A stretch of 64,000 bases of DNA from Bacteroidia bacterium (GTDB lineage Bacteria > Bacteroidota > Bacteroidia > NS11-12g > UBA9320). Numbering within the stretch: position 1 is the stretch's first letter; each line of letters opens with the position of its first letter. The position numbers and the translations under genes were made by a program. Below are positions 42,751-57,655 of this stretch, in pieces. Under the pieces are notes generated by a model that was given only the letters and a program-made list of their open reading frames with translations, searched no databases and was not told the DNA's origin. The DNA lies in the NCBI GenBank assembly GCA_020849295.1, contig JADLGN010000015.1:91168-155167 (forward strand). The letters run 5' to 3'.

Positions 42751-43914
42751 ATGAACAACATAGAGGAAATATTGTCATGGTGCGAAAAAACAGCTTTCGA
42801 CCTTAACTTTAATCATGCAAAACAATGGAAAAACAATGACAGTAAAAGGGTAATAGTAGGATATCTGCCAATTTATGTACCTCGTGAAATTATCCACGCT
42901 TCAAATGGTATAGCAGTAGGAATAATGGGCACGGGCGATCGTAAGCAAATTATAAAAGGTGACGCATATTATCAGTCGTATATATGCCATTTGCCAAGAG
43001 GAATCATTGAGTTAGCATTAGATAATAATTTAGAAGGTTTTGATGGTTTTCTATTTCCGGCAATTTGCGATTGTGTAAGAAATCTTTCAGGAATGTTCAA
43101 ATTATCAAAAAAAGGAAAATTTCAAAGATATTTTGATTATGCTCAAAACTTTGACCCATTTATTGGAGGCACTTTTTATAAACACGAAATGGAAAAAGTG
43201 CTGGACGATATATATAATGTAAATGGTATAAAGGCAACAAAAGAAAATTTAAACAATGCAATAAAATTATATAATATAAATCGCAGATTGATAGAAGAAA
43301 TATATGATATCAGACAAAAATATCCTTGGAGATTATCTGCTGTTGATACTTATCACTTACTTCGAGCAGGTATTTGCATTACTGTAGAAGAACACAATGA
43401 AATACTGCATAAAATACTTAATGTAATAAGAAATGAAAGAGGCGAAGCTATGGATAATATAAGGGTAGTAGTTTCTGGTTCATTTTGCGAACAACCGCCT
43501 GTAGGACTGATTAAGTCTATTGAAATGGCGGGTTGTTATATTGTTGATGATGACTTTATGCTTGGATCACGCTGGATACAAGGTGATATTGCCGATAATA
43601 CTGACGACCCACTTGGAGCAATTACTGATGCATATCTAAATCAAAGCACATTTTCATCATGCTATTACGATGTTGGAAATCCAAAAGGAAAAAGACTTGT
43701 AGAACTTGTAAAAAGGAGAGAAGCAGATGGTGTAATATTTTCGGCAGCAAGTTTTTGCGATCCGGCATTGTTAGACAGACCAGAAATGCAGAAAGAATGT
43801 GATGTTGCAGGCGTACCTCATATAAATTTCCAATATCACGAAAACACAGGACAGTTCAAAGTAATAAAAGAACAGGCAGGAACATTTTCTGATTCAATAA
43901 AACTTTGGGCATAA
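42751..43914 (+). CDS. 2-hydroxyacyl-CoA dehydratase / benzoyl-CoA reductase BcrC(gamma)-like iron-sulfur subunit (HGD-D family)
   Basis: The N-terminus RVIVGYLPIYVPREIIHASNG matches the family VGY.C.Y.P.E.I.AAG block. Conserved cysteines are AICDC, SGSFCEQ and ASFCDP. Confidence 0.75.
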   Translation: MNNIEEILSWCEKTAFDLNFNHAKQWKNNDSKRVIVGYLPIYVPREIIHASNGIAVGIMGTGDRKQIIKGDAYYQSYICHLPRGIIELALDNNLEGFDGFLFPAICDCVRNLSGMFKLSKKGKFQRYFDYAQNFDPFIGGTFYKHEMEKVLDDIYNVNGIKATKENLNNAIKLYNINRRLIEEIYDIRQKYPWRLSAVDTYHLLRAGICITVEEHNEILHKILNVIRNERGEAMDNIRVVVSGSFCEQPPVGLIKSIEMAGCYIVDDDFMLGSRWIQGDIADNTDDPLGAITDAYLNQSTFSSCYYDVGNPKGKRLVELVKRREADGVIFSAASFCDPALLDRPEMQKECDVAGVPHINFQYHENTGQFKVIKEQAGTFSDSIKLWA

Positions 43915-43954
43915 AATAAAGTAGTAGAAAAAATTAATTTTTAAAAAAAAAGCT

Positions 43955-45256
43955 ATGGCAAATCCAAAAGATGCAGTAAAAGAAAAGAGCATGATTATTC
44001 AAAAAGAAATGCTCGCAAAGCAATTTAACGACCTAAGTAAAGCAAGAGAAACAGGCAAAAAAGTATGTTATACATTCGTTCCGGGGAATTTAATAGAACT
44101 GATATTATCATTTGATATGCTTCCGGTATATCCTGAAATTAATGCATTACAATCGGGTATGAGAAAAAAATCAGCAGGATATATAAAAGATGCTGAGAAA
44201 ATGGGACATTCAGAAGATGTTTGCACTTATGTAAAATGCGATATTGGAATGATGCTAAACGGCAACATTGGACCTACAGGCGAAAAATTGCCAGACCCCG
44301 ATTTATTGCTTTTAAGTTACACAGGTTGTTTTACTTTTCTAAAATGGTTTGAAAACTTAAACCGTTTATATCCAAATGCTGAAATAGCAATGCTTCACAC
44401 TCCGTATCAAGAAGACGGACAAATTACTCAGGAGCAAATTGAATATATGATAAAGCAGCTAAAAGAAGATGTAATACCAAAATTTGAAAAAGTAACAGGT
44501 AAGAAATTTGATGAAGCAAAATTAAAAAAATTGTTAGATAACTCTGTGCAAGCAGAAGATTACTGGGTAAAAATTCTTCAACTTGCAAAAAATAAACCTT
44601 CGCCTATTGATGCATATTTTGCAGGAGTATATTATATGGGACCTATAAATACAGCCTTTAGAGGAAGTGAAGAGTGTCTTGAATATTACAAAGAACTATA
44701 TAAAGAAGTAAAAGAAAGAGCAGATCAAAAACTACTACCTGTAACACCGGAGGGAGAAATGAAACATGAAAGATTCAGACTAGTAGTAGAAGGACCACCA
44801 AATTGGACAAATTTCCGTGAATTTTGGAAAATATTTTATGATATGGGTGCTGTAATTGTAGCATCTACTTATACCAAGGTTGGTGGAGTTTATGATTTGG
44901 GCTATAGGCAAAATCCTGAGAAACCACTTGAAAGCCTTGCTACATATTGCATGGGATGCTATACAAATTTGAATTTACCGCAAAGGGTAGATTTAATTGA
45001 AAAATATGTAAAAGAATATCAGGCAGACGGATTTTTGATAAACTCAATAAAATCTTGTAATTCATTTTCGGCAGGGCAACTTATGATAATGCGTGAAATT
45101 GAACAAAGAACAGGAGTTCCGGTAGGATTTATTGAAAGCGACCTTGTTGACCCACGATATTTTTCTTATGCAAATATCAAAAACAGGCTCGAATCGTACT
45201 TCCAAATGCTTGAGCAACGTAAAATTATTTTATCACAAGAATCATTAACAGTTTAA
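43955..45256 (+). CDS. 2-hydroxyacyl-CoA dehydratase / BcrB(beta)-like subunit (HgdA-type)
   Basis: The motifs KKVCYTFVPGNLIELI and DVCTYVKCDIG are present. The protein is colinear with the paralogue at 49728..50948 (shared AIVASTY and ..IE[SG]DL.D.R blocks). Confidence 0.75.
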   Translation: MANPKDAVKEKSMIIQKEMLAKQFNDLSKARETGKKVCYTFVPGNLIELILSFDMLPVYPEINALQSGMRKKSAGYIKDAEKMGHSEDVCTYVKCDIGMMLNGNIGPTGEKLPDPDLLLLSYTGCFTFLKWFENLNRLYPNAEIAMLHTPYQEDGQITQEQIEYMIKQLKEDVIPKFEKVTGKKFDEAKLKKLLDNSVQAEDYWVKILQLAKNKPSPIDAYFAGVYYMGPINTAFRGSEECLEYYKELYKEVKERADQKLLPVTPEGEMKHERFRLVVEGPPNWTNFREFWKIFYDMGAVIVASTYTKVGGVYDLGYRQNPEKPLESLATYCMGCYTNLNLPQRVDLIEKYVKEYQADGFLINSIKSCNSFSAGQLMIMREIEQRTGVPVGFIESDLVDPRYFSYANIKNRLESYFQMLEQRKIILSQESLTV

Positions 45257-45261
45257 ATAAA

Positions 45262-46686
45262 ATGAGCAAATATTATCTTGGAGTTGACCTTGGCTCCACA
45301 ACATCAAAGTCAGTAATAATAAATGAACAAGACGAGATAATTGGAAGAGGAATTACAAATACTCGTGCAAATTACTCAGTAGCCGCTGATATAGCAAGGG
45401 ATGAAGCAACCTACAATGCAAGATTTTCAATATTAAAGAAAAATCTGGAAGACGAAATAGCTTCAAAGCCTGAATACAAAAAATATATTTCTGATTTAGA
45501 AAGCGTATTTCAATATGAGCAATTCAAAATAAAATTAGATAAACTTGGGGATGAGTTGGTAAAAACATGTAATAATTTTTTTAAAGATGATACTCAAAGA
45601 AATGAAATTTTAGTACATCTTAGAAATATTCGCAAAGCCTTTAAACCAAAGATTAAACATGATTATTTATATAATAATCTTGGAGAAAAAAATCAATTTT
45701 TCAGAGATATAGTTTCCGAAAAATATAATGAAGAAGTGAACAAACTCGAAATGGCATTATTCGAGCCATTAATGACGGTATGGGACAAAAGTATTTCGCC
45801 GGCAGAAAATGAAAGAATAAAATTTGATTTTAAAGAACTTGTTCATAAAGCAATGGAAGAATTAAAAGACAAATACAAGAATTTACCTGATACTGCAGCC
45901 GAAGGAGAGAGTATAAACTTTGACGCAGAGATGAATTTGCTTAAGGGAAATTTCGATCAGGTATCAGAAACTCTTCGTTCACACATTGACCATATTGCCG
46001 AACTTGAATTTCATATTGAAAACATGACAGGAACAGGCTATGGAAGAGCATTATTGCCATTTCCACAAGAATGTATCCGCTCAGAAATTTTGTGTCATGC
46101 ATTTGGAGCACATGCTGTTTTCCCTGATACAAGAACAGTTTTAGACATTGGAGGTCAGGATACAAAGGCAATTCAGGTAGATAAATACGGGCTTGTTACA
46201 TCATTTCAGATGAATGACCGCTGTGCGGCAGGCTGTGGAAGATATTTGGGATACATTGCAGATGAAATGAGCATTTCATTAAATGAATTAGGACCAATGG
46301 CAATGGAAGCACAAAAAGAAGTTAGTATTTGTTCTACATGTACAGTATTTGCCGGAGCAGAATTAAGAGAACTTACAAATCTTGGCGAAAAAAGAGAAGA
46401 TATTTTGGGAGGTTTACACAAAGCAATTATTATGCGTGCCATGTCGCTTATTGCACGTTCAGGAGGAGTCTTTAATGAATTTACATTTACCGGAGGAGTT
46501 GCAAGAAATCCGGCTGTTATAAAATATCTTACACAGCTTGTAAGAGATAATTACGGAAGCGATATAAAAATAAATATTCATACCGATTCTATATTTATGG
46601 GAGCCTTGGGAGGTGCAATGTTTGCCAGAAGAAATATTAATGTTGATTTGCCAAATGCCAAAAAAACACAAGAAGTAACACAATAA
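45262..46686 (+). CDS. BadF/BadG/BcrA/BcrD-type ATPase, large form (BcrA/alpha-like), with an internal K/E-rich helical insertion of about 200 aa
   Basis: Phosphate-1 is YYLGVDLGSTTSKSVII. Later blocks are TGTGYGR and DIGGQDTKAI. The cluster-ligand region is NDRCAAGCGRYLGY...ICSTCTVFAGAE. Confidence 0.75.
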   Translation: MSKYYLGVDLGSTTSKSVIINEQDEIIGRGITNTRANYSVAADIARDEATYNARFSILKKNLEDEIASKPEYKKYISDLESVFQYEQFKIKLDKLGDELVKTCNNFFKDDTQRNEILVHLRNIRKAFKPKIKHDYLYNNLGEKNQFFRDIVSEKYNEEVNKLEMALFEPLMTVWDKSISPAENERIKFDFKELVHKAMEELKDKYKNLPDTAAEGESINFDAEMNLLKGNFDQVSETLRSHIDHIAELEFHIENMTGTGYGRALLPFPQECIRSEILCHAFGAHAVFPDTRTVLDIGGQDTKAIQVDKYGLVTSFQMNDRCAAGCGRYLGYIADEMSISLNELGPMAMEAQKEVSICSTCTVFAGAELRELTNLGEKREDILGGLHKAIIMRAMSLIARSGGVFNEFTFTGGVARNPAVIKYLTQLVRDNYGSDIKINIHTDSIFMGALGGAMFARRNINVDLPNAKKTQEVTQ

Positions 46687-46701: not shown

Positions 46702-47538
46702 ATGGAAAATTTTTATACTATGGGTATTGACGTAGGTTCTAATTTTATAAAATTAGTACTTATGGACTATTCAGATAATCCAAAATTATTAGATAAACAT
46801 ACTGAAAAAATAAGGAAACGCGACCCATCACAAGTTGCTGAAGAAATGACTCAAAATATGCTTGCCAAGCATAAATTGAAATATGAGGATATAGCTTATT
46901 TTGCTTCTACCGGAGAAGGAGATCTTGTAAAAAGAAAAAGAGGTCATTTTTATGGAATGACAACACATGCCAAAGGAGCACATTTTTTATATTCTGATGC
47001 AATAACTGTGGTAGATATGGGTGCACTTTATGTAAGAGCAATTAAAATATCTGATGATGCAAGAGTATATGATTATAAAATGACCGGACAATGTGCCTCA
47101 GGTTCGGGGCAGTTTGTTGAAAATATTTCACGATATCTAGGTCTGTCAATTGAAGAAGTTGGCGATGTTTCAATGCAATCAAAAAATCCAGAAGTTTCTT
47201 CAGGAATTTGTGCCGTACTTGCCGAAACTGACGTAATTAATATGGTTTCAAGAGGTATATCAACACCTGATATAATAAAGGGAATTCATATTTCAATTGC
47301 CAACAGAATACTTAAACTATTGAGTTCCCTTAAAGCAGAATCGCCTATAGTAGTTACAGGAGGAATGGCATTAAACAAAGGAATGATAGAAGCACTTGAA
47401 GAACAATTGCAGGAAATGGGAAAATCTTTCCAGATTAAATCTCATCCAGATGCAATATATGCAGGTGCTATAGGAGCAGCACTTTGGGGAGGATACAGAC
47501 ATATTAAGCTAAAAGAAAAGCAAGCAGTTCTTGCATAA
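46702..47538 (+). CDS. BadF/BadG/BcrA/BcrD-type ATPase, small form (BcrD/delta- or HgdC-like activase)
   Basis: Motifs are MGIDVGSNFIKLVLMD, TGQCASGSGQFVE, SSGICAVLAETD and VVTGGMALN. The length is 278 aa. Confidence 0.8.
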   Translation: MENFYTMGIDVGSNFIKLVLMDYSDNPKLLDKHTEKIRKRDPSQVAEEMTQNMLAKHKLKYEDIAYFASTGEGDLVKRKRGHFYGMTTHAKGAHFLYSDAITVVDMGALYVRAIKISDDARVYDYKMTGQCASGSGQFVENISRYLGLSIEEVGDVSMQSKNPEVSSGICAVLAETDVINMVSRGISTPDIIKGIHISIANRILKLLSSLKAESPIVVTGGMALNKGMIEALEEQLQEMGKSFQIKSHPDAIYAGAIGAALWGGYRHIKLKEKQAVLA

Positions 47539-50960: not shown

Positions 50961-51416
50961 ATGGATACTGAAAACAAAAGTAAAGTTTATAAACTCACAG
51001 ACGGAAGTGAGGTAGATTCAAATCAAGTTGAAAAACTAATTCAGGACACATGCCATTACGTAAAATATGTTGTTATTAACCAAAATGATAAAAACGAAAA
51101 TGTAGCTTTTATTTTTCCCGATAAAAACCTTTACAACAATCCCGATTATCTTTTGGCACCTAATGACAATGAAGGTTGTTTTTGCCCACGAAACCTTGAT
51201 GAGCTTGGAAGATGTCTTACAGGGTGTATGAAAAAGGTTAATTTGAGTTTTGAAAATATTGAAGATAAATTTTCAAATGCAGTGATTTTATCAGGAGAAA
51301 ACGAAATAGAAAACGAAGTAGAAAAGTATAAGAATATTTTAAAAAATTCATTGGGGAATGAAATTTCAGATGATGAAGTATATTATATCAAAAACTTAAA
51401 GGAAAAAAAGAAGTAA
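50961..51416 (+). CDS. Hypothetical small cysteine-containing protein (C-x-C...C...C in EGCFCPRNLDELGRCLTGC)
   Basis: The 151-aa ORF is tightly packed between cluster genes (12 bp and 6 bp gaps). It has no signal peptide, and no family is recognised. Confidence 0.4.
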   Translation: MDTENKSKVYKLTDGSEVDSNQVEKLIQDTCHYVKYVVINQNDKNENVAFIFPDKNLYNNPDYLLAPNDNEGCFCPRNLDELGRCLTGCMKKVNLSFENIEDKFSNAVILSGENEIENEVEKYKNILKNSLGNEISDDEVYYIKNLKEKKK

Positions 51417-51422: not shown

Positions 51423-53273
51423 ATGAAAAAATCATCAAAATTAAAAGTTGGTATTGTAGGAATAGGTCCGGTTGGGATGATAATGGCTGTAAAACTAAAT
51501 GAGGCAGGTTGTGAAGTGGCACTTTGCGATAAAGATGAATTTAAAGTAAAAAAAGTAAGAGAAAACGGAATAGTACTTGAAAATATTTATAATTCAACTA
51601 CAAAGTTTGAACATATTTACAATTCTGTAACAGAGATGAGAAAACTTGATTTGGATTATCTTGTTTTTGCATTAAAATCATATCAAACACTTGGAGCAGC
51701 AAAAGAAGCAGAAATTCTCAATTCTGAAAAACTTACAGTAATTGCAGCTCAAAACGGTATAGATACAGAACAAATACTTGCATCAGTTTTCGGTGAAAAT
51801 AAAACACTGAGAATGGTTATAAATTATGCAGGAAATCTTACATCGCCCAATACAGTTAAAGTAACTTTTTTTACCCCACCCAACTATATAGGTTCTATAG
51901 ACGACAGCATAACCGAACAATCAAAAATATTTACATCATTACTTAATGAAGTAAATTTTGAAACAGTTAATCTCAATTCGTTTGAAATACTAAAACGTAC
52001 TTGGGAGAAAACTATTTTGAATGCATCGTTAAGTCCACTGTGTGGGGTAGGAAGACTAACTATGGCAGAAGCAATGTCTGACCCTGAAACAGTTGAACTA
52101 GTTGAGCAAATTATAAATGAGGGAATAGAAGTAGCAGAAAGAGAAAAAATACGTTTCTCAGACGATTTTTATCGAAAATGCCTGCAATATTTAAAAAAAG
52201 GTGGAGAGCATTTCCCATCATTAGCAATAGATTTAATTAATAACCGCCAGACAGAAATTGATTATTTCAACGGAAAAATTGTAGAATATGGGAAAAAACA
52301 TTATGTAAAAACCTCATTGAATTTAGCATTTACAAACATGGTAAAAGCTATGACTAATAAAAACGTAATGAACAGGTCAATTGCTTCAGATGCAGTTTTA
52401 AACAAGAAAATAGTAAGTAAAGGTTTAATAGAAAAAAATAATTCCTCATTATATTATAAAGAGCAAAATTGTTTTCTGGGGATTGACCTTGGCTCAGCAT
52501 ATACCAAGTTTACAGTTATAAATGCAAAAGGGAAACCCGTATTCAGGTACTTTGTTCACACAATGAACAAAGACAGAAATGCTATGAAAAATGTAATTCA
52601 GGCTATATATTCAACATTTAATATTAAATACAGTTGCGCTACAGGTTATGGCAGAAAACACTTTACTGATACAGATATTATTAAAACCGAAATAAACTGT
52701 GCAGCTGCAGGAGTTGCAGAATATCACGATGGTGAAAAAAACATAATAGATATCGGTGGCGAAGATATAAAGGTTATACATTGTAATAATGATAATCAGG
52801 TTGCAAATTTTTACATGAATGATAAGTGTGCTGCCGGTACAGGTGCATTTTTACAGGAAATATCAGAAAGAGCAGAAATTAAAATTGAAGATATGAGCAG
52901 CCTTGCTTCACATTCTGATTTCGACAAAGAATTAAACAGCTTTTGTACTGTTTTTGCAAAAACTGAAATTATGAATTGGGTTTTTGACGGAATGCCAATG
53001 CAAGATATTGCAAGAGGTATTTATATATCAATAGCCAATAAAGTAGCAAAAATGAGATTAATACCGGGTTTGCCAATTATTATGATTGGTGGTGTAATTG
53101 CGCATCATCCTTATATGAGTACAATACTAAGCCAGAAATTTAATAAGGATATTAAAACCATTGAACACCCTCAGTTTGTTGTGTCACTTGGTGCTGCTAT
53201 AATTGCAAAACAAACATGGGCAAACGCAAATGAAAAAATTGATTTAAATAAAGAGATTAAACTACCAGCATAA
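51423..53273 (+). CDS. Fusion protein: an N-terminal ketopantoate-reductase-like (ApbA/PanE family) NAD(P)-binding 2-oxoacid reductase domain joined to a C-terminal BadF/BcrA/HgdC-type ATPase (activase) domain
   Basis: N-terminus: KVGIVGIGPVGMIMAVKLNEAGCEVALCD (Rossmann GxGxxG). The ApbA-like middle and C-terminal helical domain carry SLAIDLINNRQTEIDYFNG (ApbA E/N substrate block). C-terminal half from about aa 345: CFLGIDLGSAYTKFTVI, DIGGEDIKVI, DKCAAGTGAFLQEISE, NSFCTVFAKTEI. Confidence 0.7.
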   Translation: MKKSSKLKVGIVGIGPVGMIMAVKLNEAGCEVALCDKDEFKVKKVRENGIVLENIYNSTTKFEHIYNSVTEMRKLDLDYLVFALKSYQTLGAAKEAEILNSEKLTVIAAQNGIDTEQILASVFGENKTLRMVINYAGNLTSPNTVKVTFFTPPNYIGSIDDSITEQSKIFTSLLNEVNFETVNLNSFEILKRTWEKTILNASLSPLCGVGRLTMAEAMSDPETVELVEQIINEGIEVAEREKIRFSDDFYRKCLQYLKKGGEHFPSLAIDLINNRQTEIDYFNGKIVEYGKKHYVKTSLNLAFTNMVKAMTNKNVMNRSIASDAVLNKKIVSKGLIEKNNSSLYYKEQNCFLGIDLGSAYTKFTVINAKGKPVFRYFVHTMNKDRNAMKNVIQAIYSTFNIKYSCATGYGRKHFTDTDIIKTEINCAAAGVAEYHDGEKNIIDIGGEDIKVIHCNNDNQVANFYMNDKCAAGTGAFLQEISERAEIKIEDMSSLASHSDFDKELNSFCTVFAKTEIMNWVFDGMPMQDIARGIYISIANKVAKMRLIPGLPIIMIGGVIAHHPYMSTILSQKFNKDIKTIEHPQFVVSLGAAIIAKQTWANANEKIDLNKEIKLPA

Positions 53274-53280: not shown

Positions 53281-54543
53281 ATGAGAGCATTTCACGACAA
53301 AGAAAAAGGTATAGGTATAATATTCGATGATATTTATTTTGTTAACGGAGCAAGAACTCCGTTTGGAAAATATTGCGGAACACTTGCAAATGTATCGCCT
53401 ACAGATTTAGGAATTTTTGCCAGTAAAGCAGCAATTAATAAAAGTAATATTTCAGCAGATAAAATTGACCAGGCAGTTATGGCAAATATTGGTCAGTCTT
53501 CAGGCGATGCATATTTTTTCCCTCGTCATGTTTCATTATTTGCAGGATTGCCGGTTACTGTACCTGCACTTATGGTTCAAAGAATATGTGCATCCGGATT
53601 TGAAACTATAATTACTTCTGCCGAGCAGATTACACTTGGCAAAGCCGATTCAACACTATGCTGCGGTGCAGAAAGTATGTCACTTTCACCAACCGTAAGT
53701 TTTGGCAACAGAATGGGTTATATGCTTGGTCGCCCTGTTTTTAAAGATATGCTTTGGGAAGCTTTAGACGATACCGCAGCAGGTTATCCAATGGGTTTTA
53801 CAGCAGAAAATATTGCAGTAAAGCACAATATTAGCAGGCAACAGTGTGACGAATATGCTCTAATATCTTTTAACAGAGCTATTGCAGCAAGAAACAAAGG
53901 ATTTTTTAATGAAGAAATTACACCTATCAATTCTACGGTATTTGAAGCAGATGGTTTAAAATCACGAAAAGTTAAACTAACTGGAGGAGTAAAAGATTTT
54001 AATATTGACGAACAAATAAGAGAAACCACATTAGAATCATTGTCAAAATTGCCAAATGTATTTAAAGAAGTAGGAGTACTGTCAGCTGGTAATTGCAGTG
54101 GCATTGTTGATGGAGCAGCAGCAGCAGTTGTAGCATCTGATAGTTTTGTAAAATCAAATAATTTAAAACCCCTTGCAAAAGTGGTAGCCGCTGCAACAAG
54201 TGCAATAGACCCTAAAGTAATGGGGCTGGGTCCGGTACCTGCTATTAAATATTTATTGGAAATTACAGGTTTAAAAATTGATGATATCGGATTGTTTGAG
54301 ATTAATGAAGCATTTTCATCACAGGTAATAGGCTGCGAAATAGAATTAGGACTTGATAGGAATAAACTTAATGTAAATGGTGGTGCAATTGCTATCGGAC
54401 ATCCGCTTGCAGCAAGCGGCTTAAGACTTTCGCTAACACTTATTAGAGAAATGAATCAAAAAAATATAAAATACGGAATTGCTTCTGCTTGTATAGGTGG
54501 CGGACAAGGTACAGCAATTCTTTTTGAAAATTTAAATAATTAA
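53281..54543 (+). CDS. Acetyl-CoA C-acyltransferase (thiolase)
   Basis: NGARTPFGKY with the active-site Cys in RICASGFETI, the motifs NEAFSSQV and GHPLAASG, and the C-terminal CIGGGQGTA are present. Confidence 0.9.
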   Translation: MRAFHDKEKGIGIIFDDIYFVNGARTPFGKYCGTLANVSPTDLGIFASKAAINKSNISADKIDQAVMANIGQSSGDAYFFPRHVSLFAGLPVTVPALMVQRICASGFETIITSAEQITLGKADSTLCCGAESMSLSPTVSFGNRMGYMLGRPVFKDMLWEALDDTAAGYPMGFTAENIAVKHNISRQQCDEYALISFNRAIAARNKGFFNEEITPINSTVFEADGLKSRKVKLTGGVKDFNIDEQIRETTLESLSKLPNVFKEVGVLSAGNCSGIVDGAAAAVVASDSFVKSNNLKPLAKVVAAATSAIDPKVMGLGPVPAIKYLLEITGLKIDDIGLFEINEAFSSQVIGCEIELGLDRNKLNVNGGAIAIGHPLAASGLRLSLTLIREMNQKNIKYGIASACIGGGQGTAILFENLNN

Positions 54544-54547: not shown

Positions 54548-54727
54548 ATGGAAATCACAGATAAAATTTTAAATCAATTTGCAAAATCTGGCAAAGCACT
54601 AAAAGGTGGCGAAATAGCCGATCTTACAGGTATTGATAAAAAACTAGTAGATAAAACCTTAAAGAAATTGATGAGTGAAGATAAAATATATTCGCCTGTA
54701 AGGTGCTATTACGATTTAAAAAAATAA
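54548..54727 (+). CDS. Unannotated 59-aa ORF (below the 60-aa cutoff of the ORF track) with winged-helix/HTH-like sequence: MEITDKILNQFAKSGKALKGGEIADLTGIDKKLVDKTLKKLMSEDKIYSPVRCYYDLKK
   Basis: Its ATG lies 4 bp after the thiolase stop, and its stop lies 3 bp before the next ATG, which is operon-tight packing. An HTH-like segment (GEIADLTGIDKKLVDKTLKKL) is followed by a beta-hairpin-like tail. Confidence 0.45.
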   Translation: MEITDKILNQFAKSGKALKGGEIADLTGIDKKLVDKTLKKLMSEDKIYSPVRCYYDLKK

Positions 54728-54730
54728 TAA

Positions 54731-55789
54731 ATGCAAAATACTAAAATGTATAAATGGGAAATGATAGAAACTGACAAAGATTTTGTCAGAAAAGAATGTG
54801 ATATTCCTGAAATTGAAGAAAATGAAGCAATAGTAAAAGTTGCAGGATGTGGTGTGTGTCATACAGATTTAAGTTTTTGGCATTTTGGAGTACAAACCAA
54901 AAAATCTTTACCCCTTACTTTAGGACACGAAATAAGCGGAACAGTTGTAGTAGGAGATAGTAGTATTATTGGAAAAAATGTAATTATACCTGCTGTATTG
55001 CCTTGTGGCAACTGCGAATTGTGTAATAATGGAAGAAGTAATATTTGTCGCAATCAACTTATGCCCGGTAATGATTTTGACGGAGGATTTGCATCTCATA
55101 TCAAAGTACCATCAAAATATTTGTGTGAAGTAGATAATGAAATATTGAAAAAATACCCATTAGAAACACTTTCTGTAATTGCTGATGCTATTTCTACACC
55201 TTATCAGGTTGTAAAAAAATCAGAATTGAAAGAAGGAGATTTTGCTATTGTGATTGGAGTGGGCGGTGTAGGAATTTACGGGGCACAAATAGCAAAAATA
55301 TTTGGAGCAAAAGTTCTTGCAATGGATATTAGTGATGAAAAACTAAATGTTGCAAAAGAAAATGGAACAGATGCAGTTTTGAACATAAAAGGAATGGATA
55401 TAAAAACTGTAAAAGAAAATGTTAAAAATATTGCTAAAGAACTTAATGCACCAAAAAATAGTTGGAAAATTTATGAAATATCGGGAACCAAAGCAGGCCA
55501 AGAACTCGCTTTTAATCTTATAACTTTTGCTTCTACATTATCAGTTGTAGGTTTTACAATGGATAAAGTAGATGTAAGACTTAGTAATCTTATGGCATTT
55601 GATGCAAAATTGATTGGCACTTGGGGATGTAAGCCAGAACTATACCCTGAAGTTGTTAAATTGGTATCAGACGGTAAATTAAAAATTGAACCTTTTATTC
55701 AAACATTTCCCTTGTCTCAAATTAATGAAGTATTTAAAAACACATTAGAACATAAATATTCAAAGCGCTCAGTACTTATTCCCGATTAA
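54731..55789 (+). CDS. Zinc-dependent medium-chain dehydrogenase/reductase (ADH_N + Rossmann), a candidate beta-hydroxyacyl-CoA / 6-hydroxycyclohexenoyl-CoA-type dehydrogenase (Had-like)
   Basis: Catalytic Zn ligands are present (GCGVCHTDL, GHE in TLGHEISG). Structural Zn cysteines are CGNCELCNNGRSNIC. The Rossmann motif is VIGVGGVGIYG. Confidence 0.85.
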   Translation: MQNTKMYKWEMIETDKDFVRKECDIPEIEENEAIVKVAGCGVCHTDLSFWHFGVQTKKSLPLTLGHEISGTVVVGDSSIIGKNVIIPAVLPCGNCELCNNGRSNICRNQLMPGNDFDGGFASHIKVPSKYLCEVDNEILKKYPLETLSVIADAISTPYQVVKKSELKEGDFAIVIGVGGVGIYGAQIAKIFGAKVLAMDISDEKLNVAKENGTDAVLNIKGMDIKTVKENVKNIAKELNAPKNSWKIYEISGTKAGQELAFNLITFASTLSVVGFTMDKVDVRLSNLMAFDAKLIGTWGCKPELYPEVVKLVSDGKLKIEPFIQTFPLSQINEVFKNTLEHKYSKRSVLIPD

Positions 55790-55799
55790 TAAAAAAAAT

Positions 55800-56882
55800 A
55801 TGCTTAAAAACCACAATATAACAGAAGTTTCTTATAAAGAAATACTATTCGAAAAAAGACCATGTCTAGATAAAAACGGACAGGCAATAGATGGATTATA
55901 CAACTCATGGATTTGCTTAAATAATCCAAAACAATACAACTCCTACACAACACAAGCTGTAAAAGAAATTATTCTTGCTTTTGGCGAAGCTTCAAACGAT
56001 CGCAGTATAGTTGCAGTTGTTTTTACGGCGGTAGAAGATAAAGCATTTTGTACAGGAGGCAATACAAAAGAATATGCAGAGTATTACTCTGGCAATCCGC
56101 AAGAATACAGCCAGTATATGCGACTATTTAATGACATGGTAAGTGCAATATTAAAATGCGAAAAACCTGTAATTTGCAGAGTAAACGGCATGAGAATAGG
56201 AGGAGGACAGGAAATAGGTATGGCTTGCGATTATACTATATCAAGTGATTTGGCTAGATTTGGTCAGGCAGGACCAAAACATGGTAGTGCAGCAATAGGC
56301 GGTGCTACAGATTTTCTTCATCTATATGTAGGTATAGAAAGAGCAATGATGTCATTAACACTTTGTGAACCTTGGACTGCTCATCAGGCATACAATTTTG
56401 GAATGATAACTGATATTGTACCTGCTCTTAAGCTTGACGGTAAATTTATACCCAACCCATTGGTAGTTTTAGATAAACAAACAGATGAGTTTGGAAAAAT
56501 AGTTTTTGGTACAATGAAAAAAGGTGATGAATTGAAAGCCGGAAAAGAAATAATGGAAAAATCGGAAATAGATTTATCAGAACTTGACAAAGCTGTAAAT
56601 AATCTTATTGCAAAACTTCTTTATACGTTCCCTAATTGTTTATCAAAAACTCTTACAGAAGTAAGAAAGAAAAAACTTGAGCATTGGGATAAAAATAAAG
56701 AAAGCAGCCGCGAATGGCTTGCTCTAAATATGATGACTGAAGCAAAAGCAGGGTTTAGAGCATTTAATTTTGGGCCAAAAGACAACAGAGAAGTTGATTT
56801 TATACTTTTAAGGCAACTTCTTGCCGAGGGTCATGAATGGAATGAAGAACTTCATCAAAAAATTTCACCTCAATATAAATAA
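55800..56882 (+). CDS. Crotonase-fold (enoyl-CoA hydratase/isomerase superfamily) protein, long form of 360 aa. It is a candidate ring-cleaving 6-oxocyclohexenoyl-CoA hydrolase (Oah/BamA-like).
   Basis: The oxyanion-hole blocks are AFCTGGNTKEY and ICRVNGMRIGGGQEIGMACDYTISS. Its length matches the approximately 370-380 aa Oah class rather than 260-aa hydratases. Confidence 0.7.
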   Translation: MLKNHNITEVSYKEILFEKRPCLDKNGQAIDGLYNSWICLNNPKQYNSYTTQAVKEIILAFGEASNDRSIVAVVFTAVEDKAFCTGGNTKEYAEYYSGNPQEYSQYMRLFNDMVSAILKCEKPVICRVNGMRIGGGQEIGMACDYTISSDLARFGQAGPKHGSAAIGGATDFLHLYVGIERAMMSLTLCEPWTAHQAYNFGMITDIVPALKLDGKFIPNPLVVLDKQTDEFGKIVFGTMKKGDELKAGKEIMEKSEIDLSELDKAVNNLIAKLLYTFPNCLSKTLTEVRKKKLEHWDKNKESSREWLALNMMTEAKAGFRAFNFGPKDNREVDFILLRQLLAEGHEWNEELHQKISPQYK

Positions 56883-57655
56883 TGGAAAAAATAAAAGTTA
56901 ATTATTTGTATGAAAATACTGTAGTTCAAATTGTGATGGACGATGGTAAAGGTAATATTTTGGATTCTGTAATGATGAAAGAACTAACAAACTTACTTGA
57001 TAGTTTTAAAACAAATAATAATCTGAAATTAATAATTTTTGAAGGAGCAGGCAAACACTATTCGTTTGGTGCAAGTGTAGAAGAGCATAAAAAAGACGAA
57101 GCTGCTCAAATGCTTAAATCATTTCATAACTTATTTTATTTGTTAATAGAATTGTCAATTCCAACCTTATCAAAAGTTAGTGGACAGTGCCTTGGAGGAG
57201 GAATGGAACTTGCCATTATGTGCAATTTTATTTATGCTGATAATACAGCAAAATTAGGACAACCCGAAATTGTTCTCGGAGTTTTTCCACCCCCTGCTTC
57301 ACTTATTTTACCTCAAAAAATTGGTCAAGCTCAAGCTGATGAATTATTATTGACAGGTAAATCAATAAACGCACAACAAGCAAAATCAATAAATTTAATT
57401 AATGAAATTTTTGAAAGCAAAGAAGAACTTCAAAATGGGTTAAACTCATTTATTGAAAATCAAATTTTACCAAAAAGTGCTTCATCACTACGTTTTGCAG
57501 TAAAAGCAGCAAGAAAAACTTTTAATAAAATATTGCTTGAAAATCTCCCTCAATTAGAAGAAATGTATGTTTCACAATTGATGAACACCAATGATGCTAA
57601 TGAAGGTATAAATTCTTTTCTCGAAAAACGCAAACCTGTTTGGGTTGGATCGTAG
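56882..57655 (+). CDS. Enoyl-CoA hydratase (crotonase family, canonical about 260 aa); Dch-like candidate
   Basis: IIFEGAGKHYSFGASVEEH and SKVSGQCLGGGMELAIMCNFIYA match the crotonase A-x-x-G-x-D and GGG-x-E motifs. The start overlaps the upstream stop by 1 bp. Confidence 0.8.
   Translation: MEKIKVNYLYENTVVQIVMDDGKGNILDSVMMKELTNLLDSFKTNNNLKLIIFEGAGKHYSFGASVEEHKKDEAAQMLKSFHNLFYLLIELSIPTLSKVSGQCLGGGMELAIMCNFIYADNTAKLGQPEIVLGVFPPPASLILPQKIGQAQADELLLTGKSINAQQAKSINLINEIFESKEELQNGLNSFIENQILPKSASSLRFAVKAARKTFNKILLENLPQLEEMYVSQLMNTNDANEGINSFLEKRKPVWVGS

What the first reader, a model, noticed from the sequence alone, without database searches (positions are those of the whole stretch)
42751..57655. 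Thirteen-gene co-directional cluster combining a class-I-benzoyl-CoA-reductase-like ATP-dependent reductase with Dch/Had/Oah-like ring beta-oxidation enzymes in a Bacteroidota-type genome
Thirteen consecutive plus-strand genes sit between rsfS and a divergent minus-strand block. Twelve are in the six-frame track and one is a 59-aa ORF I found between them. All gaps are 0-60 bp and two starts overlap the upstream stop. The cluster encodes two HgdAB/BcrBC-family iron-sulfur subunits and two different BadF/BcrA/BcrD-type ATPases, which is the hallmark arrangement of class-I ATP-dependent benzoyl-CoA reductases. It also encodes a fused ADP-forming acyl-CoA synthetase, a third HgdA-type paralogue, a Cys-rich small protein, a KPR-ATPase fusion, a thiolase, a small wHTH ORF, a Zn-MDR dehydrogenase and two crotonases, one of them about 360 aa. 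The combination of Zn-MDR dehydrogenase, long crotonase, short crotonase and thiolase is what the anaerobic benzoyl-CoA lower pathway uses (Dch, Had, Oah), whereas ordinary beta-oxidation uses a HAD-family dehydrogenase. I do not know of a described ATP-dependent aryl-/alicyclic-CoA ring reductase system in gliding T9SS-bearing Bacteroidota. The flanking genes (rsfS, birA, coaX, VWA protein) are core chromosome, so this is either an unrecognised native pathway or a cleanly inserted acquired one. Alternative readings are a 2-hydroxyacyl-CoA dehydratase fermentation pathway, or reduction of a non-aromatic enoyl/dienoyl-CoA.
Basis: partly seen in the sequence, partly recalled or inferred. Interest (0 to 1): 0.9.

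Follow-up and report, generated by a model that had tools for sequence, protein, structure and literature searches.

The report
Anaerobic benzoyl-CoA ring-reduction operon in Bacteroidota
This uncultured Bacteroidota genome carries a complete, strongly conserved operon for breaking the benzene ring without oxygen (an ATP-driven benzoyl-CoA reductase plus the ring-opening enzymes); databases already name those enzymes, but wedged inside the operon is an uncharacterised radical-enzyme unit that may feed aromatic amino acids into the pathway.

Summary
Thirteen co-directional genes (42751-57655) are real, tightly packed and under purifying selection.

Curated NCBIfam equivalog models identify g1-g4 as Thauera-type class I benzoyl-CoA reductase BcrCBAD. 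C, B and D score above the trusted cut-offs; A is the best hit but falls below. g11, g12 and g13 are Had, Oah and Dch (Dch is below cut-off but clearly the best hit).

It is not unrecognised. NCBI and JGI already name these proteins. The cluster occurs in well over 80 species-level Bacteroidota and Ignavibacteria MAGs. One paper notes a Flavobacteriales MAG expressing anaerobic benzoyl-CoA degradation genes. I found no isolate or biochemical study.

What I add:
- An FNR/CRP-type box lies upstream of bcrC and recurs across loci.
- g5-g8 form a separate, mobile module. It has an ADP- or AMP-forming CoA ligase, an alpha-only HadB-like Fe-S protein with no beta partner, and a ketopantoate-reductase-family 2-oxoacid reductase fused to a HadI-like activase.
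- The same parts occur elsewhere without the reductase, fused differently or next to an aminotransferase.
- g7 is a free-standing ligase C-terminal domain.

The module's substrate is unknown. My best guess (about 35-40%) is arylpyruvate to cinnamoyl-CoA to benzoyl-CoA.

The parts
42632..42672 (+). Conserved promoter block containing an FNR/CRP-type inverted repeat, ATGAT-TTTT-ATCAT, at 42652-42665
   Evidence: The 41-nt block is almost identical in the closest relative L001, while the surrounding intergenic DNA diverges. The core TGAT-N4-ATCA lies upstream of bcrC in 20 of 44 loci, against 0.025 expected per 430 bp. Thirty of the 79 occurrences in 1.35 Mb of loci lie upstream of bcrC or of the hemerythrin gene that precedes it. 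Within the window alone the count (2) is at chance level; the evidence is its position and its conservation.
42688..42695 (+). TAATTTTG, a match to the Bacteroidota -7 promoter motif TAnnTTTG
   Evidence: Read directly from the sequence. The motif definition comes from my own knowledge of Bacteroides promoters. The site would place the FNR-like box centre at about -42. Function is inferred only.
42751..43914 (+). g1, bcrC: gamma subunit of class I benzoyl-CoA reductase (HGD-D family, accessory Fe-S subunit)
   Evidence: TIGR02263 scores 452.8 bits (cut-off 421.15). Cys79, 106, 246, 262 and 336 are invariant in 45 orthologues.
43955..45256 (+). g2, bcrB: catalytic beta subunit of class I benzoyl-CoA reductase
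   Evidence: TIGR02260 scores 674.5 bits (cut-off 486.55). It is 100% identical to an NCBI protein named benzoyl-CoA reductase subunit B from a Bacteroidia MAG. Cys90, 95, 125, 332 and 368 are invariant.
45262..46686 (+). g3, bcrA: long ATPase subunit of the electron-activating dimer
   Evidence: TIGR02259 is the best hit at 438.5 bits, below the cut-off of 578. PF01869 matches full length. Cys321, 325, 357 and 360 are invariant.
46702..47538 (+). g4, bcrD: short ATPase subunit of the electron-activating dimer
   Evidence: TIGR02261 scores 320.6 bits (cut-off 312.85). Cys131 and Cys170 are invariant.
47600..49723 (+). g5: fused ADP-forming acyl-CoA synthetase (ACD), the ligase of module B
   Evidence: Pfam finds CoA_binding_2, Succ_CoA_lig, Ligase_CoA_2 and ATP-grasp_5. 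The best structural relative by sequence is 4-hydroxybutyrate-CoA ligase (ADP-forming), 8wzu. In 25 other loci a 582-aa AMP-forming ligase takes its place.
49728..50948 (+). g6: alpha-only HadB-like Fe-S protein (HGD-D family), the catalytic protein of module B
   Evidence: The HadB model scores 225 bits and BcrB 157. The AlphaFold model has pLDDT 95.9, and its best PDB match is HadB 3o3m_A at TM 0.91. The canonical Cys triad (Cys80, 119, 347) is present, plus invariant Cys31, 290 and 377. No beta-type partner occurs in any of the 80 loci.
50961..51416 (+). g7: stand-alone homologue of the Cys-rich C-terminal domain of the AMP-forming ligase (PF23562 type)
   Evidence: It aligns from the ligase hinge to the ligase end. 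It keeps C31-H32, C73-x-C75 and C85-x3-C89 but has lost the A10 lysine region. Some homologues carry a precomputed PF23562 assignment. dN/dS is 0.09. Its weak fold matches are all adenylation enzymes.
51423..53273 (+). g8: fusion of a ketopantoate-reductase-family 2-oxoacid reductase (residues 1-~315) and a HadI/HgdC-type activase ATPase (residues ~350-616)
   Evidence: Pfam finds ApbA, ApbA_C and BcrAD_BadFG. TIGR00241 scores 171 bits and TIGR00745 161.6, both above cut-off. The best PDB matches are HadI 4eht and HgdC 1hux for the C-terminal half, and KPR-family proteins including 3wfi for the N-terminal half. The KPR catalytic motifs WEK..N, QNG and TEIDY are present in the translation. The gene is split into two genes in L046, L048 and L049.
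53281..54543 (+). g9: acetyl-CoA C-acyltransferase (thiolase)
   Evidence: TIGR01930 scores 397 bits (cut-off 240.55). The gene is present in 55 loci.
54548..54727 (+). g10: 59-aa putative winged-helix protein, a sporadic accessory gene
   Evidence: It gives a weak HTH_5 hit. It is present only in the window and in L001, L028, L033 and L049. dN/dS is 0.23.
54731..55789 (+). g11, had: 6-hydroxycyclohex-1-ene-1-carbonyl-CoA dehydrogenase
   Evidence: TIGR03201 scores 461.2 bits (cut-off 338.65).
55800..56882 (+). g12, oah: 6-oxocyclohex-1-ene-1-carbonyl-CoA hydrolase (the ring-opening enzyme)
   Evidence: TIGR03200 scores 588.7 bits (cut-off 464.45).
56882..57655 (+). g13, dch-like: cyclohexa-1,5-diene-1-carbonyl-CoA hydratase
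   Evidence: TIGR03189 is the best hit at 221.4 bits, below the cut-off of 292.5; the next family scores 148.7. The orthologue in L058 gives the same result.

Best explanation
The 13 genes form one operon for oxygen-independent degradation of benzoyl-CoA. It is probably switched on under low oxygen through an FNR/CRP-type site upstream of the first gene.

Core pathway (assignments rest on curated models; chemistry is inferred from the characterised Thauera enzymes):
- BcrA and BcrD form an ATP-hydrolysing dimer that holds a bridging [4Fe-4S] cluster. It pushes low-potential electrons into BcrC/BcrB.
- BcrB reduces benzoyl-CoA to cyclohexa-1,5-diene-1-carbonyl-CoA.
- Dch (g13) hydrates the diene, Had (g11) oxidises the 6-hydroxy group, and Oah (g12) opens the ring to 3-hydroxypimeloyl-CoA.
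- The thiolase (g9) serves the beta-oxidation steps that follow. The electron donor (ferredoxin or a 2-oxoacid:ferredoxin oxidoreductase) is encoded elsewhere in this genome.

Module B (g5-g8) is inserted between the reductase and the ring-opening genes. It is a self-contained unit of the 2-hydroxyacyl-CoA-dehydratase type with unusual parts. A KPR-family reductase makes an (R)-2-hydroxy acid from a 2-oxo acid. A CoA ligase activates it (ADP-forming here, AMP-forming in other lineages). An alpha-only HadB-like Fe-S protein, energised by the activase half of g8, removes the 2-hydroxyl to give an enoyl-CoA.

My preferred substrate assignment is inference only, at about 35-40%. Phenylpyruvate goes to (R)-phenyllactate, then phenyllactyl-CoA, then cinnamoyl-CoA. 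Beta-oxidation of cinnamoyl-CoA yields benzoyl-CoA plus acetyl-CoA. The operon would then let a peptide-degrading bacterium burn phenylalanine without oxygen. Tyrosine could be used too in relatives that carry the neighbouring 4-hydroxybenzoyl-CoA-reductase-like molybdoenzyme.

The confidence given (0.8) refers to the core benzoyl-CoA pathway and to the generic nature of module B, not to its substrate.
For: Core pathway:
- Equivalog HMMs score above trusted cut-offs for BcrC, BcrB, BcrD, Had and Oah. BcrA and Dch are clear best hits below cut-off.
- The rival dehydratase, Bzd-type and double-cubane models all score far lower for g1-g4.
- The cluster-ligand cysteines are invariant in 45-68 orthologues.
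- The gene order BcrCBAD-ligase-g6-g8-thiolase-Had-Oah-Dch is conserved in dozens of species-level genomes.
- dN/dS is 0.026-0.042 for bcrCBAD.
- Existing NCBI and JGI names agree. A Flavobacteriales MAG is reported to express anaerobic benzoyl-CoA degradation genes (PMC8099898).

Regulation:
- The FNR-type box is conserved in L001 and strongly enriched upstream of bcrC and hemerythrin.
- Class I reductases are typical of facultative anaerobes (PMC11971306).

Module B:
- g6 is structurally closest to HadB (TM 0.91) and keeps the three-Cys site.
- The C-terminal half of g8 is closest to HadI and HgdC. The N-terminal half is a KPR-family enzyme with its catalytic motifs intact.
- The same parts recur without any reductase nearby:
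  - a KPR-HGD-D fusion followed by an activase in a Myxococcota MAG;
  - KPR + acyl-CoA dehydrogenase + g6-like + activase + the same unusual AMP-ligase (L086);
  - KPR + g6-like + activase (L087);
  - g6-like + activase + ACD (L082);
  - an aminotransferase next to a g6-like gene (L088).
- Neither ligase type is an orthologue of the canonical benzoate-CoA ligase.
- The window encodes several peptidases.
Against: Core pathway:
- BcrA and Dch fall below the curated cut-offs.
- No ferredoxin gene or CxxCxxCxxxCP motif occurs anywhere in the 64-kb window. Characterised clusters usually carry one (my knowledge).
- No activity, transcript or isolate is available for this organism.
- I could not measure identity to the Thauera proteins directly.

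Module B:
- There is no HadC-type beta subunit anywhere in the cluster, so it fails a defining feature of known dehydratases.
- g6 has extra invariant cysteines at two of the three double-cubane ligand positions that ordinary alpha subunits lack. This leaves open a reductase rather than a dehydratase chemistry.
- The hydratase and dehydrogenase needed to take cinnamoyl-CoA to benzoylacetyl-CoA are not in this window. A FadB-like gene fills that role in 37 other loci.
- No aromatic aminotransferase is linked to the cluster.
- The substrate assignment rests on genomic context alone.
Confidence: 0.8

Rival explanations
1. Module B is unrelated to aromatics. It dehydrates a 2-hydroxyacyl-CoA derived from another amino acid (for example leucine via 2-oxoisocaproate), and the ligase next to it doubles as the benzoate-activating enzyme. 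The operon would then be a plain benzoate/benzoyl-CoA pathway with a co-regulated fermentation-type side module.
For: g6's only characterised close relative is the 2-hydroxyisocaproyl-CoA dehydratase alpha subunit. The module occurs without the reductase in other phyla. The ADP- and AMP-forming ligases replace each other at the same position.
Against: Wherever enough upstream sequence was recovered among the 80 best loci, g6 and g8 sit immediately downstream of bcrD. They stay with bcrCBAD even where thiolase-Had-Oah-Dch are absent from the locus (L017, L022, L068). This argues for a functional tie to the reductase.
Confidence: 0.2
2. Module B works downstream and in reverse. Glutaconyl-CoA from the lower pathway is hydrated by g6 to (R)-2-hydroxyglutaryl-CoA. 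The ADP-forming synthetase releases 2-hydroxyglutarate and makes ATP. The KPR domain then oxidises it to 2-oxoglutarate, which can re-reduce ferredoxin for the reductase.
For: ADP-forming synthetases are reversible and often run in the ATP-yielding direction. 2-Hydroxyacyl-CoA dehydratases are reversible in vitro, and 2-oxoglutarate:ferredoxin oxidoreductase is the electron-donor system in Thauera (all my knowledge). Four or five loci carry a 2-oxoacid:ferredoxin oxidoreductase inside the cluster.
Against: Most lineages have an AMP-forming ligase at that position, which works only in the activating direction. Relatives of the module sit beside an aminotransferase and an acyl-CoA dehydrogenase, as in forward amino-acid pathways. 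The KPR half resembles enzymes for bulky hydrophobic 2-oxo acids (plus my knowledge of 3wfi).
Confidence: 0.12
3. g6 plus the activase half of g8 form a homodimeric ATP-driven reductase of the double-cubane (DCCP/YjiM) kind rather than a dehydratase. It might, for example, dehydroxylate or reduce an aryl- or 2-oxoacyl-CoA, possibly together with the molybdoenzyme found next to the module in relatives.
For: g6 is alpha-only and has its own ATPase, like DCCP with DCCP-R. It has cysteines at five of the six double-cubane ligand positions plus an extra invariant Cys377. The module lies next to a 4-hydroxybenzoyl-CoA-reductase-like molybdoenzyme, XdhC and MobA in Myxococcota and in many Bacteroidota.
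Against: The double-cubane model scores only 63 bits against a cut-off of 350. The fold is clearly closer to HadB (TM 0.91) than to DCCP (TM 0.74-0.77). One ligand position (C6) is missing, and Cys377 is not conserved outside the orthologues.
Confidence: 0.1
4. g1-g4 reduce a different aryl- or alicyclic-CoA (a substituted benzoyl-CoA or a dienoyl-CoA), not benzoyl-CoA itself.
For: BcrA and Dch are below the equivalog cut-offs. Class I enzymes for methyl-substituted benzoyl-CoA exist (PDB 9g87/9gai).
Against: g2 scores 674 bits on the BcrB model but only 199 bits against MbdO, the catalytic subunit of 3-methylbenzoyl-CoA reductase. Had and Oah, which act on the unsubstituted ring products, score well above cut-off.
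Confidence: 0.08
5. The whole cluster is a 2-hydroxyacyl-CoA dehydratase fermentation pathway with three dehydratase subunits and three activases, and no ring reduction takes place.
For: All the Fe-S and ATPase proteins belong to the shared reductase/dehydratase superfamily.
Against: g1, g2 and g4 pass the reductase-specific equivalog cut-offs and fail the HadB and HadC ones by 500 bits or more. The ring-specific enzymes Had and Oah are present.
Confidence: 0.02

Closest known systems
Thauera aromatica / Magnetospirillum-type class I benzoyl-CoA reductase cluster (bcrCBAD, dch, had, oah, fdx)
   Same: It has the same four reductase subunit types in the same C-B-A-D order. It has the same three ring-processing enzymes at equivalog level, and the same expected ATP-coupled Birch-type reduction (PMC11971306).
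   Different: The host is an uncultured, T9SS-bearing, 31% G+C Bacteroidota. The cluster has no ferredoxin gene and no canonical benzoate-CoA ligase. BcrA and Dch are divergent (below cut-off). A four-function dehydratase-type module (g5-g8) is inserted between bcrD and the lower-pathway genes.
(R)-2-hydroxyisocaproyl-CoA dehydratase system of Clostridioides difficile (LdhA, HadA, HadBC, HadI) and phenyllactate dehydratase of Clostridium sporogenes (FldH, FldA, FldBC, FldI)
   Same: The functional set is the same: a 2-oxoacid reductase, a CoA-activating enzyme, a HadB-like Fe-S protein with the three-Cys site, and an ASKHA activase with two cluster cysteines.
   Different: There is no beta subunit. 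The reductase belongs to the ketopantoate-reductase family and is fused to the activase. A ligase (ADP- or AMP-forming) replaces the CoA transferase. g6 has extra invariant cysteines. The HadB model scores 225 bits against a cut-off of 750.
Double-cubane cluster proteins with their ATPase (DCCP/DCCP-R of Carboxydothermus; YjiM/YjiL of E. coli)
   Same: Both pair a single type of HGD-D subunit with its own activase-type ATPase, and the physiological substrate is unknown (PMC7317905).
   Different: g6 lacks the full 7-Cys motif. It scores 63 bits against a cut-off of 350 on the family model, and its fold is nearer to HadB.
Bzd-type and Mbd-type class I reductases (BzdNOPQ of Aromatoleum; MbdONQP of Thauera chlorobenzoica)
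   Same: They belong to the same superfamily and share the two-module architecture. Solved structures are available (8s02, 9g87/9gai).
   Different: They are much more distant. The BzdO model scores 105 bits and MbdO 199 bits for g2, against 674 bits on the BcrB model.

Membership tests
Class I (ATP-dependent) benzoyl-CoA reductase, Thauera/BCR type | Four different subunits are encoded together: two HGD-D-family Fe-S subunits (B, C) and two different ASKHA ATPases (A, D) | tested here: met
   g1-g4 are adjacent. Pfam finds PF06050 twice and PF01869 twice. The A (474 aa) and D (278 aa) subunits are only about 28% identical to each other.
Class I (ATP-dependent) benzoyl-CoA reductase, Thauera/BCR type | Each subunit reaches the curated equivalog score (TIGR02263, TIGR02260, TIGR02259, TIGR02261) | tested here: inconclusive
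   C scores 452.8 (cut-off 421.15), B 674.5 (486.55) and D 320.6 (312.85), all met. A scores 438.5 against 578, so it is not met although it is the best hit by about 265 bits.
Class I (ATP-dependent) benzoyl-CoA reductase, Thauera/BCR type | Cysteine ligands for the bridging [4Fe-4S] cluster in A/D and for the catalytic [4Fe-4S] cluster in B | tested here: met
   BcrD Cys131 and Cys170, BcrA Cys321 and Cys360 (with Cys325 and Cys357), and BcrB Cys90/95, Cys125 and Cys368 are invariant across orthologues. The positions correspond to the BzdO and HadB triad described in PMC11971306.
Class I (ATP-dependent) benzoyl-CoA reductase, Thauera/BCR type | MgATP-dependent two-electron reduction of benzoyl-CoA to cyclohexa-1,5-diene-1-carbonyl-CoA | not testable with these tools
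   This needs anaerobic enzyme assays.
Benzoyl-CoA lower pathway, Thauera type (Dch, Had, Oah) | Equivalog-level matches to TIGR03189, TIGR03201 and TIGR03200 | tested here: inconclusive
   Had scores 461.2 (cut-off 338.65) and Oah 588.7 (464.45), both met. Dch scores 221.4 against 292.5, so it is not met, but the next family scores only 148.7.
2-Hydroxyacyl-CoA dehydratase systems (HgdAB/HadBC/FldBC/LcdAB plus activator) | A heterodimer of homologous alpha and beta Fe-S subunits | tested here: not met
   Only one HGD-D gene (g6) belongs to the module. No further paralogue occurs in the window or in any of the 80 related loci. More distant relatives are also alpha-only.
2-Hydroxyacyl-CoA dehydratase systems (HgdAB/HadBC/FldBC/LcdAB plus activator) | An alpha-subunit fold with three-Cys [4Fe-4S] site, and an ASKHA activator with a two-Cys bridging cluster | tested here: met
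   The g6 model matches HadB at TM 0.91 and rmsd 2.0. Cys80, 119 and 347 are conserved in about 100 of 106 family representatives. For g8, TIGR00241 scores 171 bits (cut-off 125.4), and Cys469 and Cys508 are invariant.
2-Hydroxyacyl-CoA dehydratase systems (HgdAB/HadBC/FldBC/LcdAB plus activator) | An accompanying (R)-2-hydroxyacid dehydrogenase and a CoA transferase | tested here: inconclusive
   A 2-oxoacid reductase is present, but it belongs to the KPR family and is fused to the activase. No CoA transferase is present; a ligase stands in its place.
2-Hydroxyacyl-CoA dehydratase systems (HgdAB/HadBC/FldBC/LcdAB plus activator) | Equivalog score for HadB (NF052455) | tested here: not met
   g6 scores 224.9 bits against a cut-off of 750.
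Double-cubane cluster proteins (DCCP) | The seven-Cys motif C-X19-C-X18-19-C-X29-C-X166-170-C-X32-34-C-X32-C, and the family model NF040772 | tested here: not met
   g6 has cysteines at positions equivalent to C1, C3, C4, C5 and C7 but not C6. NF040772 scores 63 bits against a cut-off of 350.
ADP-forming acyl-CoA synthetases (ACD) | Fused alpha and beta domains: CoA-binding, succinyl-CoA-ligase-like flavodoxin, ligase-CoA and ATP-grasp | tested here: met
   Pfam finds PF13380, PF13607, PF19045 and PF13549 in order. 8wzu scores 441 bits over the full length. The SHTGALAG phosphohistidine loop is visible in the translation (the motif is from my knowledge).

The most novel reading that the evidence does not exclude
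The operon encodes a previously undescribed hybrid route for anaerobic catabolism of aromatic amino acids. A fermentation-type aryl-lactyl-CoA dehydratase would convert phenylpyruvate to cinnamoyl-CoA. This dehydratase is of a new architecture: alpha-only, with its activase fused to a KPR-family arylpyruvate reductase, and with a ligase instead of a CoA transferase. Cinnamoyl-CoA would be beta-oxidised to benzoyl-CoA and then dearomatised by a respiratory-type class I reductase. In relatives that carry the 4-hydroxybenzoyl-CoA-reductase-like molybdoenzyme, 4-hydroxyphenylpyruvate would take the same route. If so, widespread uncultured, peptide-degrading Bacteroidota of lakes, groundwater and activated sludge would be mineralisers of aromatic rings under low oxygen.
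Probability: 0.35. Interest if true: 0.75.

Novelty: new variant of a known kind. Interest (0 to 1): 0.55.

Why it matters
Class I benzoyl-CoA reductases have been studied almost only in a few denitrifying and phototrophic Proteobacteria. This work shows a very well conserved version, with BcrB at least 79% identical across more than 120 protein clusters. It occurs in many uncultured Bacteroidota and Ignavibacteria from stratified lakes, groundwater and wastewater plants. These groups are usually treated as polymer and peptide degraders, not as anaerobic degraders of aromatic rings. If the operon is active, carbon-cycling and bioremediation models for hypoxic freshwater and engineered systems would need to include these groups.

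For enzymologists, the embedded module offers a defined genomic context for an alpha-only member of the reductase/dehydratase radical-enzyme family. That group currently has no known physiological role. The module also provides natural fusions (KPR-activase and KPR-HGD-D) that point to its partner reactions.

Databases currently label g8 simply as 2-dehydropantoate 2-reductase, which hides the activase domain.

Tried and rejected
- **Sigma-70 promoter and terminator scan**. Counts were at shuffle level, and Bacteroidota promoters are not covered, so it was not informative.
- **Rfam scan of the whole window**. It found nothing.
- **Ferredoxin search**. No CxxCxxCxxxCP motif occurs in any frame of the window. 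In the related loci the motif appears mainly as the delta subunit of an inserted 2-oxoacid:ferredoxin oxidoreductase.
- **Contig look-up for the 100%-identical BcrB**. It is not on record, so I could not examine the rest of the source genome.
- **tblastn of BcrB against plasmids, to recover named Thauera-type references**. Only relatives at 27% identity or less turned up. Identity to the characterised enzymes was therefore not measured, and no reference phylogeny was built.
- **Literature searches** for this cluster in Bacteroidota, for a dehydratase-reductase combination, and for the MbdONQP structure paper. Only PMC8099898 touches the subject; the MbdO search returned noise.
- **Double-cubane idea for g6.** I considered it because g6 has six invariant cysteines. 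I downgraded it because one ligand position is missing, Cys377 is orthologue-specific, and both the HMM and the fold favour HadB.
- **g7 as a decaying pseudogene remnant.** I rejected this: dN/dS is 0.09, the Cys/His motif is invariant in 28-44 sequences, and the domain is retained at two different genomic positions.
- **g7 structure prediction.** The later model is of low confidence (pLDDT 62), so its fold matches are only suggestive.
- **The palindrome CTTATTTTAAAATAAG (42704-42719).** It is not conserved in L001, so I dropped it.
- **The neighbouring molybdoenzyme in relatives.** Its assignment stayed ambiguous. In the Myxococcota locus the 4-hydroxybenzoyl-CoA reductase alpha model is the best hit but below cut-off. 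For the fused Bacteroidota form, aldehyde-oxidoreductase and Se-dependent xanthine dehydrogenase models score best.

Full report
**1. Observation.** Thirteen plus-strand ORFs lie between 42751 and 57655. Gaps run from -1 to 61 bp. G+C is flat at about 0.31-0.34 and does not differ from the flanks.

- three HGD-D proteins (g1, g2, g6);
- BcrAD_BadFG ATPases in g3 and g4 and in the C-terminal half of g8;
- ApbA and ApbA_C in the N-terminal half of g8;
- a five-domain ADP-forming acyl-CoA synthetase (g5);
- a thiolase (g9), a Zn-MDR dehydrogenase (g11) and two crotonases (g12, g13).

Orthologue N-termini show that g6 starts at ATG 49728, so only g12 and g13 overlap. Against the closest relative (L001, 61-95% protein identity), all 13 genes have dN/dS of 0.03-0.23. 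This includes the 151-aa g7 (0.09) and the 59-aa g10 (0.23). dS is close to saturation, so the ratios are approximate.

The flanks are ordinary Bacteroidota chromosome: RsfS, a BirA-type ligase, CoaX, LptC, a SusD-like protein, several peptidases, and T9SS-sorted proteins.

**2. What the core is.** NCBIfam equivalog models give a clear answer (bits vs cut-off).

| Gene | Model | Bits | Cut-off |
|---|---|---|---|
| g1 | BcrC | 452.8 | 421 |
| g2 | BcrB | 674.5 | 487 |
| g4 | BcrD | 320.6 | 313 |
| g3 | BcrA | 438.5 | 578 (best hit, below cut-off) |
| g11 | Had | 461 | 339 |
| g12 | Oah | 589 | 464 |
| g13 | Dch | 221 | 292.5 (next family 149) |

The competing models are far weaker for g1 and g2. 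HadC and HadB score 152 and 205 bits, BzdN and BzdO 83 and 105, and the double-cubane model 99 and 70. Against solved structures, g2 is closest to MbdO of 3-methylbenzoyl-CoA reductase at only 199 bits. It therefore belongs to the Thauera BCR type, not to the Mbd or Bzd types.

The cysteines expected to hold the bridging cluster (BcrA, BcrD) and the catalytic cluster (BcrB) are invariant in 51-68 orthologues. They correspond to the ligands described for BzdO and HadB (PMC11971306).

The inferred chemistry is the established Thauera pathway. ATP-driven reduction of benzoyl-CoA gives the 1,5-dienoyl-CoA. Hydration (Dch), oxidation (Had) and hydrolytic ring opening (Oah) then give 3-hydroxypimeloyl-CoA, and the thiolase serves the later beta-oxidation. 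These steps are inferred from family membership, not shown here.

**3. Distribution and prior knowledge.**
- g2 is 100% identical to an NCBI protein already named benzoyl-CoA reductase subunit B from a Bacteroidia MAG.
- More than 120 protein clusters at 79% identity or above come from Bacteroidota MAGs. They include Saprospirales, Ferruginibacter and Flavobacteriales, and many carry that same name.
- A scan of one genome per species with g6 found 355 matching stretches. The best 80 loci are all MAGs: Bacteroidota including Vicingus, Chitinophagaceae and Flavobacteriales, one Ignavibacteria genome, and an unclassified one. They come from stratified lakes, groundwater and activated sludge.
- The order BcrCBAD-ligase-g6-g8-thiolase-Had-Oah-Dch recurs throughout.

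Literature searches found no paper devoted to this cluster. [quoted passage not shown]

The reductase part is therefore a new, uncharacterised member of a known kind. Annotation pipelines already recognise it.

**4. Regulation.** A 41-nt block upstream of g1 (42632-42672) is almost identical in L001, while the rest of the intergenic region diverges. It contains ATGAT-TTTT-ATCAT, one base per half-site away from the FNR consensus TTGAT-N4-ATCAA (the consensus is from my knowledge).

The core TGAT-N4-ATCA occurs upstream of bcrC in 20 of 44 loci, against 0.025 expected per 430 bp. Thirty of all 79 occurrences in 1.35 Mb of loci lie upstream of bcrC or of the hemerythrin gene that precedes it. 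In the window alone the motif count is at chance level, so the evidence is position and conservation.

A Bacteroidota-type -7 motif (TAATTTTG, 42688-42695) would put the box at about -42 (inference). Oxygen-responsive control would suit an oxygen-sensitive class I reductase. Such enzymes are typical of facultative anaerobes (PMC11971306).

**5. The embedded module (g5-g8).**

*g6.*
- It is closer to the HadB model (225 bits) than to BcrB (157 bits).
- Its AlphaFold model (pLDDT 95.9) superposes best on HadB (TM 0.91). MbdO and BzdO follow (0.88-0.89), then DCCP (0.74-0.77) and the beta subunits (0.72).
- It keeps the three-Cys site.
- No beta-type partner exists in the window or in any related locus.

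*g8.*
- Its C-terminal half is closest to HadI and HgdC.
- Its N-terminal half is a KPR-family enzyme with the catalytic Lys, Asn and Glu motifs present.
- Its nearest solved relatives include entries I recall as D-mandelate/2-ketoacid dehydrogenases (3wfi; my knowledge).
- Public databases call g8 simply 2-dehydropantoate 2-reductase.

*Ligase variants.* In L046, L048 and L049 the two halves of g8 are separate genes. The ligase comes in three arrangements:
- a 582-aa AMP-forming enzyme with an unusual PF23562 C-terminal domain (25 loci);
- that enzyme together with the ADP-forming synthetase;
- the synthetase plus g7, as in this window.

Neither ligase type is an orthologue of benzoate-CoA ligase.

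*g7.* It aligns from the ligase hinge to the ligase end. It keeps an invariant C-H...C-x-C...C-x3-C motif but has lost the A10 lysine region. It looks like a retained domain with a role of its own, not debris.

**6. The module is mobile and recurs without the reductase.** A search of 1.84 billion representatives found 1752 relatives of g6, the best only 54% identical. Their genomic contexts are informative:
- A Myxococcota protein fuses the KPR domain directly to a g6-like domain. An activase, a three-subunit XDH-family molybdoenzyme, XdhC and MobA follow it. The molybdoenzyme's alpha subunit is closest to 4-hydroxybenzoyl-CoA reductase (733 bits, below cut-off).
- L086 has KPR, an acyl-CoA dehydrogenase, g6-like, an activase and the same PF23562 ligase.
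- L087 has KPR, g6-like and an activase.
- L082 has g6-like, an activase and an ADP-forming synthetase.
- L088 has an aminotransferase next to g6-like.

Together these contexts supply the complete functional set of a 2-hydroxyacyl-CoA dehydratase pathway running forward from an amino-acid-derived 2-oxo acid. The parts are non-canonical.

In Bacteroidota the module always sits directly after bcrD. It does so even in loci where thiolase-Had-Oah-Dch are replaced by other genes (L017, L022, L068). Many loci also carry SDR-XdhC-MobA, a 2Fe2S-fused molybdoenzyme with an FAD subunit, hemerythrin and a FadB-like enzyme. The window has none of these.

**7. Mechanistic proposal and rivals.** The reading that gives every conserved gene a job runs as follows: arylpyruvate, then (R)-aryl-lactate (g8 N-terminal half), then aryl-lactyl-CoA (ligase), then cinnamoyl-CoA (g6 with the g8 activase). 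FadB-type hydration and oxidation and thiolysis (g9) then yield benzoyl-CoA, which the reductase dearomatises. I give this about 35-40%.

It fits the peptidase-rich genome and the remark in PMC8099898. It remains context-based, however. The hydratase and dehydrogenase for cinnamoyl-CoA are not in this window, and no aminotransferase is linked.

The rivals are:
- a side module for non-aromatic amino acids;
- a reverse route from glutaconyl-CoA to 2-oxoglutarate, weakened by the AMP-forming ligase in most lineages;
- a double-cubane-type ATP-driven reductase.

The third is suggested by g6 having cysteines at five of the six double-cubane ligand positions plus an extra Cys377. It is weakened by the missing sixth position, by poor conservation outside the orthologues, and by the HMM and fold results.

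**8. Native or acquired.** Composition gives no sign of recent insertion, and L001 shares the same flanking genes. Several points suggest lateral spread and module shuffling within the Bacteroidota/Ignavibacteria group:
- bcrCBAD comes in two subtypes (75-95% versus 57-72% identity to the window) combined with similar g5-g13;
- the cluster occurs in Ignavibacteria (L070);
- accessory genes come and go between close relatives. Examples are a four-subunit 2-oxoacid:ferredoxin oxidoreductase inserted between oah and dch in L001 and the sporadic g10.

**9. Verdict.** The reductase and ring-opening genes are an uncharacterised but already-annotated member of a known system. The distinctive and unexplained feature is the conserved alpha-only dehydratase-type module with its KPR-activase fusion and orphan ligase domain. 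Interest is moderate. It would be high for specialists if the hybrid aromatic-amino-acid route is confirmed.

Noticed in passing
window 51423-53273 (g8): Public databases (NCBI, JGI) name this 616-aa protein and its more than 100 close homologues simply '2-dehydropantoate 2-reductase'. The C-terminal HadI-like activase domain is ignored, so the annotation is misleading.
   Followed up: yes
window 50961-51416 (g7); L058 8240-9988: The C-terminal domain of the cluster's AMP-forming ligase carries an invariant Cys/His motif (C-H ... C-x-C ... C-x3-C). The domain survives as a separate, selected gene where an ADP-forming synthetase has replaced the ligase. It may bind a metal or dock onto g6/g8; its function is unknown.
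   Followed up: partly
window 49728-50948 (g6): Besides the canonical three-Cys site, Cys31, Cys290 and Cys377 are invariant in 80 orthologues. All three sit at the ends of beta strands facing the inter-domain cleft. Cys31 and Cys290 occupy double-cubane ligand positions C1 and C5.
   Followed up: partly
L081 10001-18157 (Myxococcota MAG, GCA_054682455.1): An operon lies apart from any benzoyl-CoA reductase. It encodes a KPR-HGD-D fusion protein, an activase, a three-subunit XDH-family molybdoenzyme (alpha subunit closest to 4-hydroxybenzoyl-CoA reductase), XdhC and a MobA-like protein.
   Followed up: partly
L001 17215-19943: In the closest relative, a four-subunit VorB-type 2-oxoacid:ferredoxin oxidoreductase (delta, alpha, beta, gamma) is inserted between oah and dch. 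In the window these two genes overlap by one base. The inserted enzyme is a candidate electron-donor system. It is also present in L003, L019 and L053.
   Followed up: partly
L017, L022, L068 (Vicingus-type loci), downstream of g8: Thiolase-Had-Oah-Dch are absent from these loci. A FadB-like enzyme, a hydantoinase/caprolactamase-like A/B pair and an acyl-CoA dehydrogenase follow g8 instead. This may be a different downstream route.
   Followed up: no
L058, L070, L054 and others; the contig shown: Many relatives carry a hemerythrin gene directly upstream of bcrC. They also carry an arm encoding a MobA-like protein, an SDR, a 942-aa 2Fe2S-molybdopterin fusion protein and an FAD subunit. None of these genes is in the window.
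   Followed up: partly
window 57720-58328 and 58295-60391 (minus strand): Two overlapping ORFs of 202 and 698 aa lie immediately downstream of the operon. Neither has any Pfam match.
   Followed up: no
window 13461-15509, 25564-27645, 36802-38625: The window encodes a prolyl oligopeptidase (S9), a tail-specific protease (S41) and an M2 peptidyl-dipeptidase. The M2 gene sits beside a SusD-like gene. This points to a peptide-degrading lifestyle.
   Followed up: no
window 2900-8413 (minus strand): An 1837-aa protein carries several PKD domains and a CHU_C type IX secretion signal. It is a large T9SS cargo protein.
   Followed up: no
window 54548-54727 (g10): The 59-aa winged-helix-like ORF between the thiolase and had occurs in only 5 of about 50 loci that contain both neighbouring genes. 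It appears to be a small mobile accessory gene.
   Followed up: partly
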